Assembly (NCBI GenBank): GCA_964342815.1
Contig: CAYFHS010000002.1
Location: 248,790 to 312,789, forward strand
Reading direction: 5' to 3'
DNA length: 64,000 nucleotides
DNA from: an uncultured archaeon
GTDB taxonomy: Archaea; Thermoplasmatota; Penumbrarchaeia; JASLWR01
Below, piece by piece: positions 31,283-35,404 of the stretch. The first letter of the stretch is position 1, and each line of letters begins with the position of its first letter. A program made the translations under genes and the position numbers. The notes below the pieces were generated by a model. It saw nothing but the letters and a program-made list of their open reading frames with translations. It had not been told where the DNA came from and did not search any database.

Positions 31283-34200
31283 TTACATAAATTCCATCAG
31301 GTTGGGAAGGGCAATGGCCGGATGACCGACCTCTATGCACCATTCCATGAGCTGCGCCGGGTCCGTTACATTTGTCTCATCCGCTATCTTGTCCAGGAAA
31401 TTTGGTATCCCGAGTTCCTTTGCCCGCTGCTCCATGATCTCTCGCATATCTTCCTTCAATTGCTTGGGCATCCACATCAGTCGTTTGAAGCCGTCTTCCG
31501 CCCTGATAAACTTGGGACTCACAAGGAACTTTCTTCCTATACCGAGGAAACCGGGCGTCTGCTTACCGCCTCCAACGGAACCAGCGAGTGTGGTGAACTT
31601 CATGCCGATTGGCGTCATTCCACCGTATTCCCGGTTAACAACAATGAAACCCTGGGCATCCGCGGTCATTGCAACGATGCACTCGAAACACCCGCAGCTG
31701 GTCATTGGGAATTTCATCAAGCTGTATTGGTTGAATATCTCTATCTTTCCGTGACTGTGCTCCCTTACCGCCTGGTTGACCCCTTCCCACTGGCCCTTGT
31801 GTTCATCGATGACACCGGTCTTGGGAACCGGCTGATTTGGACCTGTGGGAGCGATCTCCTTGCTGGCCTTGGAATCCATCCAGTTGATGGCACCGCACAG
31901 TCCAAGCCTCTCCGGGCTGATTATGCATACATGATCGGGGGCGAAGGACTGGCAAAGCGTGCAGGTGTAGAAGGTATCCACAGCCTCATCGGTGAGACCC
32001 GCCATCTTCTTGTCCCTTTCTTCGTAAGAGATCCAGGCTTCTTCTTTCCATTTTTCCAGCTCCACGGGATCGGTGACAATGGTTACCTGTACCCTGTTAA
32101 GGATCGATCCGAACTCCTGATGCATCATGGAATAAAGGATGGTCCCGAAATCTTTGAAGCAGAACCCCTCTTTTACCGAAGCCTTGGACAGCCGTATCCA
32201 TACCAGATTGCGTTGGCCCGTATGCCATCCGCCTTCGGCAAAGTTGATGAATTGATGTATCCGTCTTTCTAGAACAGGTTCGAAATCCTCCTGCATCTTC
32301 TTGCCGTATACCTCCACGAACATTCCCAGCGTTGTCGAGCCTCCTTCCTCCATCTCATCCAGGTCCGGTCCGATCAACTGTATCTTACCGTCCTCTACCT
32401 GGTCCGCCTCCCTCATTTTACACAACTCGAAACAGAGGGTCTTCGAGGCACCCCCGGCCTCAATTGCCATTCCGCTCCTTCGAACGGTCTCACCCTCAAA
32501 GGCAGGACCGTAAGCTACAGGGATATCCACATCACCCATCTTTATGACCATGTCCCTGATCTCGATGGCGGTTGAAATGATCTGGTCATAGTCCTTCTGC
32601 ATTACGTATTTCCCAGGTATCTCTTCGATATCCTGGTCGGTTATGGTAGGCGAGCCGTGGAAAAGGACGGCGAACTCCGCCGCGATCTTAATGTCATCCA
32701 GGGGGCCCAGTTGAATAACCACTACTTTCGGACGCTTGGCCATGTATTCGTAGATTCCTTTTCGGTCTCCCGGTTCCTTTCCACCGAATATCATTGCAGC
32801 GCGAATAGCGAAGCTTAGGCCGTGTATAGCCTGGGTGAACTCTCCAACGCAGAAAAGCATTCTGTCGAGCCCTTTCTTGTCCCCCACCTGGATACCGGCT
32901 TCCTTGATCTGCTGGATAATGTCGAAGGTGGCGATGATCAGCATACCCTTGTTCTGCGCATTTCGGACTATCTTCTTCAATGCCTGAGGATCCTTTGCCT
33001 TACCCACCAGCACGATGGCTCCTGGGATGGTATCGTCCACGAAGCCGATCCCCAGTTCCCTGAGGACGACGTCGGAAATAAAACCGCTGTAATTCGGGTG
33101 ATCCTCGTAGGGGTTCTTGCCATCGATGTATTTTATTGCTTCAACTATCTCCGCTGCGATCATGGTCGCCTCGCCGGAAGCGATGGCGCTTTCTAGAGAT
33201 ATGTCGTCCTCCCTTATCCGGCGGCGGACCTTGCCAAGTATTACCGGTAACTGCCCCAGGCTCTCTACCTTTACGCCGTACCAGGCCATGACACAGGGAA
33301 GATAATATCCTGTATTGGGGTACTCGATCCTTGCGTTCCGTCCGAATCTGGTCATTGCGCGGTTCAGAAGGTATTCTGCATAACCGGTAGCGATTACCGC
33401 ACCGTCGATTGCCTTTCTGTAAATCTGTTCCTTCATGAGTTTAGGTCTTACGTCATCCCTGGTGGTGCCATCCCAGTATAACCCCTCAGTGTCTTCACCT
33501 ATCCCAAGGCGCCACCGCCTGTATTTTATAATATTGTTCAGCTTTCTTGCTGCTTCTTGAGGGTCTTGTTCGAAAACGAAGAAACCTCCGTAAACGTCGT
33601 GGGCCGTAACCTCTGCGATCTCGGTCACCAGGGGACTTCCCTTGTGATAGGCATTGACCCCCACATGAGTAGGCCAACCCGTGGTCACGAGCCAACTCCC
33701 TATGGCTACCGCTTTCTCGCTCATGGCTTCCGGAGCGGAGCCGACGATTGGAAGCTCGGACATTTTCAGGTTCATCTTCTGGGCAAGTTTACTAACCAAA
33801 TTTTGTACCCGCGAATTGTCAACACAGGATCCCATGTGAATAATTAATGGTAATCCGCCTTCGATACCGGCCTTTTCACCCACTTCCTTCAAGAATCCCT
33901 TGAGGGAATCGCCGGCATATTCCGCTGCGGCTTCAGGTGTCAACAGTCCGTGTTTGGCATATGACTGGGCCGCACAGCCGGTGGCGAGCACAAGAACATT
34001 CTTCTTTGCAAGTTCGGTCGCCACAGTGTTATGGGCAAAATCGTGCTTGACTTTTGCATTGTTACAACCGGCAAGAAGTGCGATACCCTGCAGGGTGCCG
34101 TCATTTATCTTGTCAGCGAGATACTGGTATGGTCCGTCCGGGTTCATCATTGAAAATATCCGCTCAACCTCCTCCAGACTGAAACCTGCCACCACCTTGT

Positions 34201-35404
34201 TCTTCACTTCCGGGATATGGATGATGCTCGGGTCACGGTTCTTGAAGGCATCCATTGCCACATTCAGGATCTCACGTGCGCATTCTTCCGCATGCTCCTC
34301 GTGGAATTCGATATGCGTGTCGCCGGGAATCCTGGTTATCTCCTGGGTGGAGATCATCTGTGTATGGAAACATTGGGCCCACCAACCTTGACTGGGTGCG
34401 ATACATTGATAGTCCACCACCATGGCGTCGATAACCCCGGTGGCAATGGCCAGCTCTTGGATCATATAATTCGTTGCTATCGGGATCCCCCGCCTCATCA
34501 ACAGCTCGTTGGCAGTACAGCATATACCGACAATGTTGAAGCCTCTTGCTCCGGCCGCTTCAGCCTCGCTCCTCATATCATCCGCCATATCGCAGATCAC
34601 TTCACTGAGGATCGGATTATGGCCATGCACACAGATATTGACATGATCCTCTTTCAAGCTGCCGAGGTTCGCTTCCGATTCGATCAATTTGGGTGTGCCA
34701 AACAGGATATCCGATACTTCCGTACTGAAATTTTCTCCTGTCAGATCACCGAGCGCTGCCTTCAAACCACCAAAGATGAGCGGGACCGGGTCTGCGTCGC
34801 AACCCATTGTCGTCCTGTGCATCACCTCGCATATGCCCCGATCTATGTTCGTTGGAAGAACATTGTGCGAATCCGCGAGTTCGATCATACTGTCCGGCAT
34901 CAGTTTCTTGAACCAGGTGCAAGCTTCATTTGTCTGCCGAGAAAAGTCATCGAAACCCATCGCTACCACTTCACGTGCTAATTCCAATAGGTCTTTCCCT
35001 TCCGTATCGATTCCTATCTCTCCTGCAACCCTTTTCAATTTTTCCTCATCCTTTATTCTGTAAGCTGGAGCATGTCCCTCTCCTACAGCATGTAAAGTAT
35101 GGGCAATATGCCGACCGTGATCCGAATGCGCTGCAGCACCGGCCGCCGCCATTCGAATGATATTCCGGGCCACTATAGTGTAGTCCCTTGCACCGCAAAC
35201 ACCTTTAGCAGGTTCTCCGCCATGCGGGTTTATCCGGCATGGCCCCTGGAGGCAGATCCTGCAACACAGACCCGTATCTCCGAATCCGCACTGCGGGGAT
35301 TGTTTATCTAAACGGTCCCACAGAGTATCTAGACCTTTTTCTTTCGCTATTTCCATGAGCTCTTTTGCTACTGGATCGCTTGTTTTTTCTTCAATATCAA
35401 CCAT
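31283..35404 (-). CDS. acsAB: fused CO dehydrogenase (CooS/AcsA) - acetyl-CoA synthase (AcsB), 1373 aa
   Basis: D/B-cluster QCGFG..CCRICLQGPC..CGA; C-cluster HGHNP, ICCTANE, DYQC, GCNN, GCAA, GSCVDN; SEKA Lys; in-frame continuation into AcsB with GPAFEGE, CTLCQSFAPDHVC..GLCGA and TSCGCFE. Confidence 0.95.
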   Translation of the reverse strand: MVDIEEKTSDPVAKELMEIAKEKGLDTLWDRLDKQSPQCGFGDTGLCCRICLQGPCRINPHGGEPAKGVCGARDYTIVARNIIRMAAAGAAAHSDHGRHIAHTLHAVGEGHAPAYRIKDEEKLKRVAGEIGIDTEGKDLLELAREVVAMGFDDFSRQTNEACTWFKKLMPDSMIELADSHNVLPTNIDRGICEVMHRTTMGCDADPVPLIFGGLKAALGDLTGENFSTEVSDILFGTPKLIESEANLGSLKEDHVNICVHGHNPILSEVICDMADDMRSEAEAAGARGFNIVGICCTANELLMRRGIPIATNYMIQELAIATGVIDAMVVDYQCIAPSQGWWAQCFHTQMISTQEITRIPGDTHIEFHEEHAEECAREILNVAMDAFKNRDPSIIHIPEVKNKVVAGFSLEEVERIFSMMNPDGPYQYLADKINDGTLQGIALLAGCNNAKVKHDFAHNTVATELAKKNVLVLATGCAAQSYAKHGLLTPEAAAEYAGDSLKGFLKEVGEKAGIEGGLPLIIHMGSCVDNSRVQNLVSKLAQKMNLKMSELPIVGSAPEAMSEKAVAIGSWLVTTGWPTHVGVNAYHKGSPLVTEIAEVTAHDVYGGFFVFEQDPQEAARKLNNIIKYRRWRLGIGEDTEGLYWDGTTRDDVRPKLMKEQIYRKAIDGAVIATGYAEYLLNRAMTRFGRNARIEYPNTGYYLPCVMAWYGVKVESLGQLPVILGKVRRRIREDDISLESAIASGEATMIAAEIVEAIKYIDGKNPYEDHPNYSGFISDVVLRELGIGFVDDTIPGAIVLVGKAKDPQALKKIVRNAQNKGMLIIATFDIIQQIKEAGIQVGDKKGLDRMLFCVGEFTQAIHGLSFAIRAAMIFGGKEPGDRKGIYEYMAKRPKVVVIQLGPLDDIKIAAEFAVLFHGSPTITDQDIEEIPGKYVMQKDYDQIISTAIEIRDMVIKMGDVDIPVAYGPAFEGETVRRSGMAIEAGGASKTLCFELCKMREADQVEDGKIQLIGPDLDEMEEGGSTTLGMFVEVYGKKMQEDFEPVLERRIHQFINFAEGGWHTGQRNLVWIRLSKASVKEGFCFKDFGTILYSMMHQEFGSILNRVQVTIVTDPVELEKWKEEAWISYEERDKKMAGLTDEAVDTFYTCTLCQSFAPDHVCIISPERLGLCGAINWMDSKASKEIAPTGPNQPVPKTGVIDEHKGQWEGVNQAVREHSHGKIEIFNQYSLMKFPMTSCGCFECIVAMTADAQGFIVVNREYGGMTPIGMKFTTLAGSVGGGKQTPGFLGIGRKFLVSPKFIRAEDGFKRLMWMPKQLKEDMREIMEQRAKELGIPNFLDKIADETNVTDPAQLMEWCIEVGHPAIALPNLMEFM

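What the first reader, a model, noticed from the sequence alone, without database searches (positions are those of the whole stretch)
31283..35404. Single-chain CODH-ACS: bacterial-type CooS/AcsA fused in frame to full-length AcsB in an archaeon
Seen: one 1373-aa ORF with no stop between a complete Ni-CODH and a complete ACS. The CODH part (about aa 1-630) has D/B-cluster Cys, the HSDHGRH His ladder, all six C-cluster ligand motifs and the SEKA Lys. The ACS part keeps its N-terminal domain and the A-cluster motifs CxxC-x8-C-x9-C and SCGCF. The junction is ..YRRWRLGIGEDTEGLYWDG.. (~33470-33530). Known: in Moorella and Carboxydothermus these are separate subunits of an alpha2beta2 complex linked by a CO tunnel, and archaea normally use the unrelated CdhA/CdhB/CdhC arrangement. 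From memory, the ACS, AcsC and AcsD here read Moorella-like. Inference: an interdomain-transferred module whose subunits became covalently locked, fixing stoichiometry and CO channelling.
Basis: partly seen in the sequence, partly recalled or inferred. Interest (0 to 1): 0.85.

Follow-up and report, generated by a model that had tools for sequence, protein, structure and literature searches.

The report
Single-chain CODH/acetyl-CoA synthase in an archaeon
A marine Thermoplasmatota archaeon encodes the CO2-reducing and the acetyl-CoA-forming enzymes of the Wood-Ljungdahl pathway as one intact 1373-residue protein; the fusion is real, but it is the usual form in a large group of uncultured archaea, was listed in a 2019 supplementary table, and has not been studied at the bench in any paper I could search.

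Summary
Window 31283-35404 is one stop-free 1373-aa ORF. Residues 9-635 are a complete CooS/AcsA-type Ni-CODH and residues 666-1370 a complete bacterial-type AcsB. Every cluster ligand is present. Only about 13 residues (640-652) match neither solved subunit.

It is not a misassembly. An independent metagenome contig and a metatranscriptome contig cross the junction without a difference. More than 110 database clusters and about 30 sampled archaeal genomes in two GTDB phyla carry the same architecture. No stop-free fusion was seen in 45 bacterial loci or 301 Chloroflexota genomes.

The operon is cooF-like ferredoxin, fused gene, acsD, acsC. The genome has a folate-type methyl branch and no cdhA or mch.

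- The fused proteins are not one clade. A truly unfused archaeal lineage nests among them (AU p 0.001), so at least two fusion or fission events occurred.
- Some database "unfused" AcsB entries are annotation artefacts.
- A related lineage shows stepwise decay of the CODH domain.

Inoue et al. 2019 listed such fusions, and this scan has reported the same fusion at least ten times on other DNA. It is a new member of a catalogued but biochemically unstudied variant.

The parts
35470..35913 (-). CooF-like ferredoxin, 147 aa, GTG start, with four Cys4 motifs. It is the likely electron partner of the CODH domain and the first gene of the operon.
   Evidence: Pfam Fer4_7, Fer4_11 and related families. 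The translation shows CxxCxxCxxxC-type motifs at C14-C24, C62-C74, C94-C104 and C120-C135. The same small ferredoxin precedes the gene in L089 and L091.
31283..35404 (-). Fused cooS/acsA-acsB gene: 1373 aa, roughly 150 kDa (estimated from the length), stop codon at 31283-31285.
   Evidence: The same gene is intact in relatives G001, G003, G006, G010, G012 and G014.
33488..35404 (-). Ni-CODH domain, aa 1-639, with D, B and C cluster ligands and His93/Lys564.
   Evidence: TIGR01702 at 9-635, 702 bits. Matches 7zkk_A, 1mjg_A and 1jqk_A at E 1e-202 or better. Ligands mapped. Foldseek TM 0.96 (by target length) to CODH-II chains.
33449..33487 (-). Junction, aa 640-652. It corresponds to the C-terminal tail of CooS, with the ...YWDGTT... 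motif, running straight into the AcsB N-terminus.
   Evidence: This stretch is unmatched between the two PDB alignments. The linker alignment shows the same YW-G-T motif in the CooS tail of the unfused sister lineage. AF2 pLDDT is 88-90 over 631-660, modelled as ordered coil. Independent DNA and RNA-library contigs cross it.
32549..33448 (-). ACS N-terminal (A1) domain, about aa 653-952. In solved complexes this domain docks on CODH and carries the CO tunnel. The domain end is approximate.
   Evidence: Pfam CODH_A_N 679-760. Collinear with 7zkj_B, 1ru3_A and 1oao_C from their residues 12-20. A751, A866 and A909 are conserved. AF2 pTM is 0.89 for aa 1-960.
31286..32548 (-). ACS middle and C-terminal (A2, A3) domains, about aa 953-1373, with the A-cluster ligands.
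   Evidence: Pfam CdhC 961-1114 and ACS_CODH_B_C 1127-1370. C1148, C1151, C1160, C1170, C1237, G1238, C1239 and F1154 are invariant in 24 fused homologues and were mapped.
30310..31269 (-). acsD: small subunit of the corrinoid iron-sulfur protein, 319 aa, bacterial length.
   Evidence: Pfam CdhD. NF003376, 339 bits against a cut-off of 280, full length 1-313.
28988..30313 (-). acsC: large subunit of the corrinoid iron-sulfur protein, 441 aa, with an N-terminal Fe-S motif. It overlaps acsD by 4 nt.
   Evidence: Pfam FeS plus CdhD. NF003195, 525 bits against a cut-off of 306.

Best explanation
The gene encodes a working single-chain CODH/ACS.

Proposed mechanism:
1. Two chains most likely pair through their CODH domains, as all solved Ni-CODHs do. 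This would give a dimer equivalent to the bacterial alpha2beta2 enzyme (inferred).
2. The CooF-like ferredoxin encoded upstream delivers electrons through the D and B clusters to the Ni-Fe C cluster, which interconverts CO2 and CO (inferred from intact ligands).
3. CO passes through the hydrophobic tunnel of the attached A1 domain to the Ni-Ni-[4Fe-4S] A cluster.
4. There CO is joined with a methyl group from the corrinoid protein AcsC/AcsD and with CoA to give acetyl-CoA, or the reverse reaction occurs.
5. The methyl group comes from a folate-type methyl branch encoded elsewhere in the genome.

The fusion itself is nearly seamless. The CooS C-terminal tail runs directly into the AcsB N-terminus. 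The adjacent cooS and acsB genes became one reading frame through loss of the stop-start boundary.

Shown here: the architecture, its intact catalytic residues, its conservation, and its gene context.
Inferred: activity, dimer formation, tunnel use, the physiological direction, and any selective benefit such as fixed 1:1 stoichiometry or a stabilised tunnel.
For: - One open frame, with both halves above the curated cut-offs.
- All cluster ligands, the acid-base pair, F1154 and the three tunnel alanines are conserved. They are invariant or nearly so across 24 fused homologues that share 55-87% identity with the query.
- Both halves are collinear with the solved C. hydrogenoformans and Moorella subunits, with only about 13 unmatched residues between them.
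- AF2 of aa 1-960 gives pTM 0.89 and an ordered linker.
- The junction is confirmed by an independent DNA contig and is present in an RNA-library contig.
- The same architecture occurs in more than 110 clusters of 1300-1434 aa, in 12 of 401 sampled Thermoplasmatota genomes and in about 19 of 201 genomes of a second archaeal phylum.
- The operon order ferredoxin, fused gene, acsD, acsC matches the unfused archaeal operon cooF-like, cooS, acsB, acsD, acsC in L091.
- The genome holds Fhs, FolD, MTHFR, a 259-aa pterin-binding ORF, RACo and CooC. No cdhA or Mch was found.
Against: - There is no biochemical or proteomic evidence that the chain stays intact or is active.
- The RNA-library contig does not prove transcription, because DNA can be present in such libraries.
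- An AF2 monomer model can only dock the domains within one chain. It therefore does not show whether A1 serves its own or the partner chain's CODH domain.
- acsE, cooC and RACo are not in the operon, and the assignment of the 259-aa pterin-binding ORF as AcsE is a guess.
- The genome is 89% complete, so the absences (cdhA, mch) are 'not found'.
- A related lineage lets the CODH domain decay, so the fusion is not always kept under selection.
Confidence: 0.85

Rival explanations
1. The ORF is fused at the DNA level but yields two subunits, either by internal translation start near the junction or by proteolytic cleavage of the linker. The mature enzyme would then be an ordinary alpha2beta2 complex.
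For: Annotation pipelines called internal starts for AcsB in two fused relatives (P0122 and P0158). P0001 has a Met at 659, just after the junction.
Against: Met659 is not conserved. Relatives read PKLTQEQ, PKITQQQ and similar at that place. The linker is short, conserved within clades and modelled as ordered. The frame has been kept open in well over a hundred lineages, which would not be needed if two products were made from separate starts.
Confidence: 0.07
2. The fusion is an assembly or sequencing artefact: a lost stop codon, a frameshift error or a chimeric join at the junction.
For: The genome is a metagenome assembly of 116 contigs. The best DNA holder, X1, may be the source sample and so is not independent.
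Against: Contigs from another study (X5) and from an RNA library (X8) cross 33449-33490 with no difference and no indel. Six relatives at 69-93% identity have the same uninterrupted frame, as do more than 110 protein clusters.
Confidence: 0.01
3. The enzyme is intact but works mainly in the oxidative direction, cleaving acetyl-CoA or oxidising CO in a heterotrophic sediment or seawater archaeon. It would then not serve autotrophic CO2 fixation.
For: CODH/ACS is reversible (established knowledge). The relatives are described as mixotrophs with organic-carbon degradation genes (PMC9239135). The genome is large (4.35 Mb) and, by this scan's earlier notes, holds c-type cytochromes and membrane electron conduits (unchecked notes).
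Against: Nothing in the sequence tells the direction. A complete folate branch (Fhs, FolD, MTHFR) serves either direction.
Confidence: 0.4

Closest known systems
Bacterial bifunctional CODH/ACS, AcsA2AcsB2, of Carboxydothermus hydrogenoformans (PDB 7ZKJ, 7ZKK; ACS alone 1RU3) and Moorella thermoacetica (PDB 1MJG, 1OAO)
   Same: Both halves align end to end with these subunits: E 1e-202 for CODH and E 4e-230 for ACS. All metal-cluster ligands, the acid-base pair, the A1 domain and the tunnel alanines are the same. The gene order acsA then acsB is the same, followed by corrinoid-protein genes.
   Different: One polypeptide replaces two. The natural tails are shortened to a junction of about 13 unmatched residues. 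The host is an archaeon. The operon is reduced to four genes, with acsE, cooC and RACo elsewhere in the genome. No solved chain covers both parts of the model: the best Foldseek matches cover about 631 of 960 residues.
Fused Ni-CODHs listed by Inoue et al. [quoted passage not shown]
   Same: The same domain order and the same kind of host, an uncultured euryarchaeote from sediment. The CODH has complete ligands and a type II D cluster. The window protein has the matching C-x7-CC pattern at C39, C47 and C48.
   Different: Those entries are 1275 aa and 989 aa (the second is partial), and the paper filed them under 'others' without discussion.
Unfused bacterial-type CODH/ACS operons of Thermoplasmata archaea, for example locus L091 (GCA_046761045.1): cooT, cooC, cooF-like, cooS (669 aa), acsB (718 aa), acsD, acsC
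   Same: This is the sister lineage in the tree, with the same operon core. The CooS tail carries the same YW-G-T motif that forms the fused linker.
   Different: cooS and acsB are separate genes that overlap by 4 nt in different frames. The CooS tail is 15-30 residues longer.
Archaeal acetyl-CoA decarbonylase/synthase (CdhABCDE) of methanogens, for example Methanosarcina (PDB 9C0S; CdhA 3CF4)
   Same: The chemistry and the clusters are homologous. The ACS A2-A3 domains match CdhC (TIGR00316, 423 bits; 9c0s_E at E 6e-104).
   Different: [quoted passage not shown] CdhA has extra E and F clusters, and a CdhB subunit is present. The window protein scores 54 bits against the cdhA cut-off of 781, and no cdhA was found in the genome.

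Membership tests
Ni-CODH, CooS/AcsA type (TIGR01702; Pfam PF03063) | Full-length match above the curated cut-off | tested here: met
   TIGR01702 at 9-635 of a 621-position model, 702.5 bits against a cut-off of 478. PF03063 at 46-616, E 3e-158.
Ni-CODH, CooS/AcsA type (TIGR01702; Pfam PF03063) | C-cluster ligands (His plus five Cys), B- and D-cluster Cys, and the acid-base His and Lys | tested here: met
   H262, C296, C334, C447, C477, C527; C48, C51, C56, C70; C39, C47; H93, K564. All were mapped onto Neomoorella AcsA and are invariant in 24 homologues.
Ni-CODH, CooS/AcsA type (TIGR01702; Pfam PF03063) | Homodimer sharing a D cluster; CO oxidation or CO2 reduction activity | not testable with these tools
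   A dimer of two 1373-aa chains exceeds the size limits of the structure tools.
Bacterial-type acetyl-CoA synthase AcsB (NF040764) | Full-length match above the cut-off, including the N-terminal A1 domain that CdhC lacks | tested here: met
   NF040764 at 666-1370 (model 1-705 of 705), 932 bits against a cut-off of 800. PF18537 at 679-760. Collinear with 7zkj_B 12-728 of 730.
Bacterial-type acetyl-CoA synthase AcsB (NF040764) | A-cluster ligands: four Cys for the [4Fe-4S] cube plus the Cys-Gly-Cys motif for the Ni sites | tested here: met
   C1148, C1151, C1160, C1170 and C1237-G1238-C1239 correspond to Moorella-numbering C506, C509, C518, C528 and C595-G596-C597.
Bacterial-type acetyl-CoA synthase AcsB (NF040764) | CO tunnel through A1. 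The tunnel-lining Ala110, Ala222 and Ala265 and the gating Phe512 of Moorella are recalled from memory, not taken from a paper read here. | tested here: met
   The positions map to A751, A866, A909 and F1154, all conserved. Whether a tunnel actually forms was not tested.
Fused CooS-AcsB proteins of uncultured archaea (Inoue et al. 2019, Suppl. Table 1; JGI product name 'carbon-monoxide dehydrogenase catalytic subunit/CO-methylating acetyl-CoA synthase') | One stop-free frame with CODH at the N-terminus and full AcsB at the C-terminus | tested here: met
   The junction was verified by independent contigs.
Fused CooS-AcsB proteins of uncultured archaea (Inoue et al. 2019, Suppl. Table 1; JGI product name 'carbon-monoxide dehydrogenase catalytic subunit/CO-methylating acetyl-CoA synthase') | Groups phylogenetically with other fused proteins | tested here: met
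   P0001 lies in a starred clade of 16 fused rows. At 50% identity clustering, a single representative (P0041) spans the junction among 1.84 billion proteins.
Archaeal ACDS (CdhA/CdhB/CdhC/CdhD/CdhE) | CdhA-type CODH with E and F clusters (TIGR00314) | tested here: not met
   54.3 bits against a cut-off of 781. No hit above the cut-off anywhere in the 89%-complete genome.
Archaeal ACDS (CdhA/CdhB/CdhC/CdhD/CdhE) | Two-domain CdhC without the A1 domain; delta subunit of about 390-440 aa | tested here: not met
   The A1 domain is present. The delta homologue is 319 aa and passes only the short subfamily model NF003376. It falls below the cut-offs of TIGR00381 (227 vs 253), NF003377, NF003375 and NF003378.

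The most novel reading that the evidence does not exclude
The fused CODH/ACS is not a single frozen accident. It is an evolving module.
- It was fused or split at least twice.
- It moved between two archaeal phyla.
- In a lineage labelled Methanomassiliicoccales it is being dismantled from the CODH end, leaving a catalytically dead CODH remnant attached to a conserved AcsB.

If so, the remnant would be kept as a structural partner of the A1 domain. These archaea would then run an ACS that no longer makes its own CO. That would need another CO source or another role for the enzyme.
Probability: 0.35. Interest if true: 0.55.

Novelty: new member of a known kind. Interest (0 to 1): 0.4.

Why it matters
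A natural single-chain CODH/ACS is a convenient object for structural and synthetic biology:
- One gene carries both Ni enzymes and the gas tunnel between them.
- The subunit ratio is fixed.
- It sits in a compact four-gene operon.

It also bears on how the Wood-Ljungdahl carbonyl branch spread among archaea. The fused, unfused and decayed forms together offer a natural experiment on how far ACS depends on an attached CODH.

For annotation, the fused genes are sometimes truncated to an "AcsB" of about 725 aa in public records. Surveys that filter by length therefore miss or miscount them; one marine survey kept only AcsB/CdhC-family sequences of 350-762 aa (PMC13240472).

None of this changes the known chemistry.

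Tried and rejected
1. Same-frame excess in bacteria.
- In the 47 adjacent unfused acsA-acsB pairs of loci L018-L088, 41 were in the same frame and 16 had a single stop between them. In Neomoorella the stop is followed in frame by 5 codons and then the acsB ATG.
- This hinted at read-through or an ancestral fusion.
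- I suspected selection bias, because the locus search kept the best 80 of at least 600 hits by tblastn with a fused query.
- An unbiased sample of 301 Chloroflexota genomes gave 10 of 19 adjacent pairs in the same frame. I computed this from the coordinates. It is not clearly above one third given relatedness, so I dropped the idea.

2. 'Unfused' AcsB proteins nested in the fused clade of the FastTree (16 changes). The two I checked, P0122 and P0158, are single open frames at the DNA level with no gene called over the CODH part. The protein-database labels are therefore unreliable, and I rebuilt the test set from verified pairs.

3. Literature.
- Searches for CooS/AcsB with fusion or fused, and for phrases such as 'CooS-AcsB', 'fused CODH' and 'CODH-ACS fusion', found no discussion of the fusion.
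- The only mention found is the supplementary table of Inoue et al. 2019.
- Adam et al. 2018 (PNAS) is not held, so I could not check whether it mentions the fusion.

4. Taxonomic codes for the 64%-identity clade. No kinship is given for genomes reached through loci. I could only show that its phylum sample shares no genome handle with the Thermoplasmatota sample.

5. Not run.
- Complex prediction, because CODH with the A1 domain is a textbook pair that would pass by likeness to solved structures.
- A dimer model of the full chain, because it exceeds the size limits.

6. Read coverage. Parts of 33000-34000 are uncovered in X3, X5 and X8. I take nothing from these gaps.

Full report
OBSERVATION

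The ORF exists as described, on the minus strand: 31283..35404, 1373 aa, ATG start. The plus-strand reading is full of stops and the minus-strand reading has none.

Pfam places Prismane at 46-616, CODH_A_N at 679-760, CdhC at 961-1114 and ACS_CODH_B_C at 1127-1370. NCBIfam gives the CooS equivalog TIGR01702 at 9-635 (702 bits, cut-off 478). It gives the bacterial AcsB equivalog NF040764 at 666-1370 (932 bits, cut-off 800).

Against solved structures, residues 6-639 align with the ACS-associated CODH of C. hydrogenoformans (7zkk_A 25-657 of 669, E 2e-202) and with Moorella AcsA. Residues 653-1370 align with C. hydrogenoformans ACS (7zkj_B 12-728 of 730, E 4e-230) and with Moorella AcsB. Only about 13 residues (640-652) belong to neither alignment, so the junction is nearly seamless.

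I mapped P0001 onto Neomoorella AcsA and AcsB, whose numbering reproduces the Moorella ligand numbers. Every ligand is present:
- D cluster: C39, C47.
- B cluster: C48, C51, C56, C70.
- Acid-base pair: H93, K564.
- C cluster: H262, C296, C334, C447, C477, C527.
- A cluster: C1148, C1151, C1160, C1170, C1237-G-C1239.
- F1154, and the three alanines I recall as tunnel lining: A751, A866, A909.

These positions are invariant or nearly so in 24 fused homologues that share 55-87% identity with the query.

NOT AN ARTEFACT

Thirteen listed public runs hold at least part of the stretch. Laid on 33000-34000, three contigs cross the junction (33449-33490) without a difference or an indel:
- a 5.3-kb contig of the probable source sample;
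- a 214-nt contig from an unrelated study (X5, 33309-33522);
- a 279-nt contig of a metatranscriptome library (X8, 33294-33568).

The RNA-library contig is a hint of transcription, not proof.

Independent of this, a search with the junction region (residues 450-900) returned 120 listed clusters. Of these, 110 are 1300-1399 aa and two are longer, and all carry the four Pfam domains. Relatives of the window's genome at 69-93% identity have the same uninterrupted frame.

CONTEXT

The operon on the minus strand has four genes:
- a 147-aa CooF-like ferredoxin with four Cys4 motifs (35470-35913);
- the fused gene;
- acsD (30310-31269, 319 aa, bacterial length);
- acsC (28988-30313, 441 aa).

Elsewhere in the 4.35-Mb, 89%-complete genome I found the following:
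- Present: formate-tetrahydrofolate ligase, FolD, MTHFR, a 259-aa pterin-binding ORF that may be AcsE, RACo and a CooC homologue.
- Not found: cdhA above its cut-off, and methenyl-H4MPT cyclohydrolase.

The organism therefore appears to have a complete bacterial-style, folate-dependent Wood-Ljungdahl pathway. The closest named loci are uncultured Thermoplasmata archaea.

DISTRIBUTION

- In a sample of 401 Thermoplasmatota genomes, 12 have a frame that spans the junction, one of them with a TGA. Many others have a separate AcsB, and two have adjacent separate cooS and acsB.
- A tight clade at 64-65% identity occurs in about 19 of 201 genomes of a second archaeal phylum. That phylum sample shares no genome handle with the first and is rich in CdhC-type ACS.
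- All 45 loci with bacterial titles among the species-representative loci have separate adjacent acsA and acsB.
- None of 301 sampled Chloroflexota genomes has a stop-free fusion.
- In a search of 1.84 billion representatives at 50% identity, one protein (P0041, 1375 aa) spans the junction. Two shortened derivatives, P0175 and P0234, also match across it.

The fusion is thus one archaeal family.

EVOLUTION

I built a concatenated CODH plus ACS tree of 65 rows with IQ-TREE (LG+G4).

The tree puts all archaeal sequences in one clade (SH-aLRT 100), next to Bacillota and Synergistota pairs and apart from Chloroflexota, Planctomycetota and Desulfobacterota. This fits a bacterial origin. However, the root is only a midpoint root, and the tool warned of long branches. 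A 2026 preprint leaves the root of ACS open (PMC13370988).

Inside the archaeal clade the order is:
- a basal unfused pair;
- a fused clade of 15;
- an unfused clade of 9 that is sister to the fused clade of 16 holding the window protein.

All these branches have support of 98 or more. Forcing the fused rows together costs 26 log-likelihood units (AU p 0.0012). The caveat is that I named the group after seeing a tree.

The unfused clade is truly unfused. In L091, cooS (669 aa) and acsB (718 aa) overlap by 4 nt in different frames.

The linkers were compared:
- The window's clade has ...RRW-L-GIG-D-x3-IYWDGTT..., then about five residues, then the AcsB N-terminus.
- The unfused sister has the same YW-G-T motif in its CooS tail, followed by 15-30 more residues, a stop, and the AcsB Met.
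- The other fused clade has shorter and different linkers (42-48 residues in the same alignment window, against 51).

So there were either two fusions, each by a small deletion across the gene boundary, or one fusion and a later fission. I cannot decide between these.

SIDE RESULTS

(a) Two AcsB entries of about 725 aa that looked unfused inside the fused clade, P0122 and P0158, are single open frames at the DNA level. No gene was called over the CODH part. Public annotation therefore under-reports the fusion.

(b) In the lineage labelled Methanomassiliicoccales there is a series of shortened forms:
- an intact fusion (P0120);
- proteins of 1141-1157 aa that lack the D/B-cluster region and the stretch holding two C-cluster cysteines;
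- proteins of 945-1035 aa with most ligand positions lost or replaced;
- AcsB of 711-714 aa with no CODH part.

All shortened forms lie on long contigs.

(c) An apparent excess of same-frame acsA-acsB pairs in bacteria was a selection artefact of the locus search.

STRUCTURE

AlphaFold2 on residues 1-960 with 30 homologues gave mean pLDDT 85.8 and pTM 0.89. The linker region 631-660 scored 88-90 and was modelled as an ordered coil. The low-confidence stretch (about 31-70) is the D/B-cluster region, which needs the dimer and the metal clusters.

Foldseek's best PDB chains cover about 631 of the 960 residues, with TM 0.96 by target length. No solved chain spans both parts. A monomer model cannot tell whether A1 serves its own or the partner chain's CODH.

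WHAT IS KNOWN

Inoue et al. [quoted passage not shown] JGI product names already combine both enzyme names.

Papers on Thermoplasmatota list CooS and AcsB without noting that they are one gene (for example PMC9239135). The 2026 ACDS preprint notes AcsB in archaea, but the passages I found do not mention the CooS fusion. I found no biochemical or structural study. Adam et al. 2018 could not be read.

This scan has reported the same fusion on at least ten other stretches of DNA, with the same verdict. I reached the 2019 table and the distribution before reading those notes.

VERDICT

- Observation: confirmed.
- Interpretation: partly supported.
- The protein is a new member of an already catalogued, biochemically unstudied single-chain variant of bacterial-type CODH/ACS.
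- Interest is moderate. It is a useful natural design and an interesting evolutionary series, but it brings no new chemistry and is not rare.

Noticed in passing
Proteins P0169, P0172, P0175 (1141-1157 aa); P0173, P0201, P0204, P0231-P0236 (945-1035 aa); locus L063:5413-8406: In a lineage labelled Methanomassiliicoccales the CODH part of the fusion is decaying. First the D/B-cluster region and the segment holding two C-cluster cysteines are lost, then most ligand positions, ending in AcsB of 711-714 aa with no CODH part (P0195, P0226). The AcsB part stays conserved. In the sampled genomes the same forms appear as open frames of 969-1027 aa (G139, G172, G175, G187, G262, G361).
   Followed up: partly
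L089:4057-8193 (GCA_020356005.1) and L090:4036-8175 (GCA_001800815.1): Public records annotate only a 724-730 aa 'AcsB' here and call no gene over the 2 kb upstream. The DNA is one open frame that matches the whole fused protein. Length-filtered surveys will miscount these genes.
   Followed up: yes
Proteins P0144, P0198, P0206, P0208: Some archaeal AcsB homologues carry intein and homing-endonuclease domains (PF14890, PF14528). The insertion interrupts the alignment near P0001 residue 1151 (or 1237 in P0144), close to the A-cluster cysteines.
   Followed up: no
Loci L026, L029, L035, L039, L053, L055, L082 (Chloroflexota): The open frames holding AcsB in several Chloroflexota run to 1223-1435 aa, about 450-700 aa past the end of the AcsB match. 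This suggests a different, C-terminal fusion or extension in bacteria.
   Followed up: no
L018:7945-7970 (Neomoorella stamsii): The acsA stop codon TAA is followed in frame by five codons (including the AGGAGG ribosome-binding site) and then the acsB ATG. A single substitution would therefore fuse the two genes. The apparent excess of such same-frame pairs across bacteria was a sampling artefact.
   Followed up: yes
window 339-4688 (+), 8803-14004 (-), 14099-20206 (-), 43066-47466 (+), 60072-63212 (+): The window holds five very long ORFs (1046-2035 aa). I did not examine them.
   Followed up: no
window 38601-40427 (+) and 40529-41623 (+): Hsp70/DnaK (608 aa) and DnaJ (364 aa) lie 3 kb from the acs operon. 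A Tpt1/KptA RNA 2'-phosphotransferase (36711-37391) and an ArsR-type regulator (37551-38285) lie between them.
   Followed up: no
G045:C63:3625-7530 and G405:C1:2828735-2832838: Two otherwise full-length fused genes carry a single in-frame stop: TGA in G045 and TAG in G405. The cause could be a sequencing error, a pseudogene or recoding. I did not examine it.
   Followed up: no
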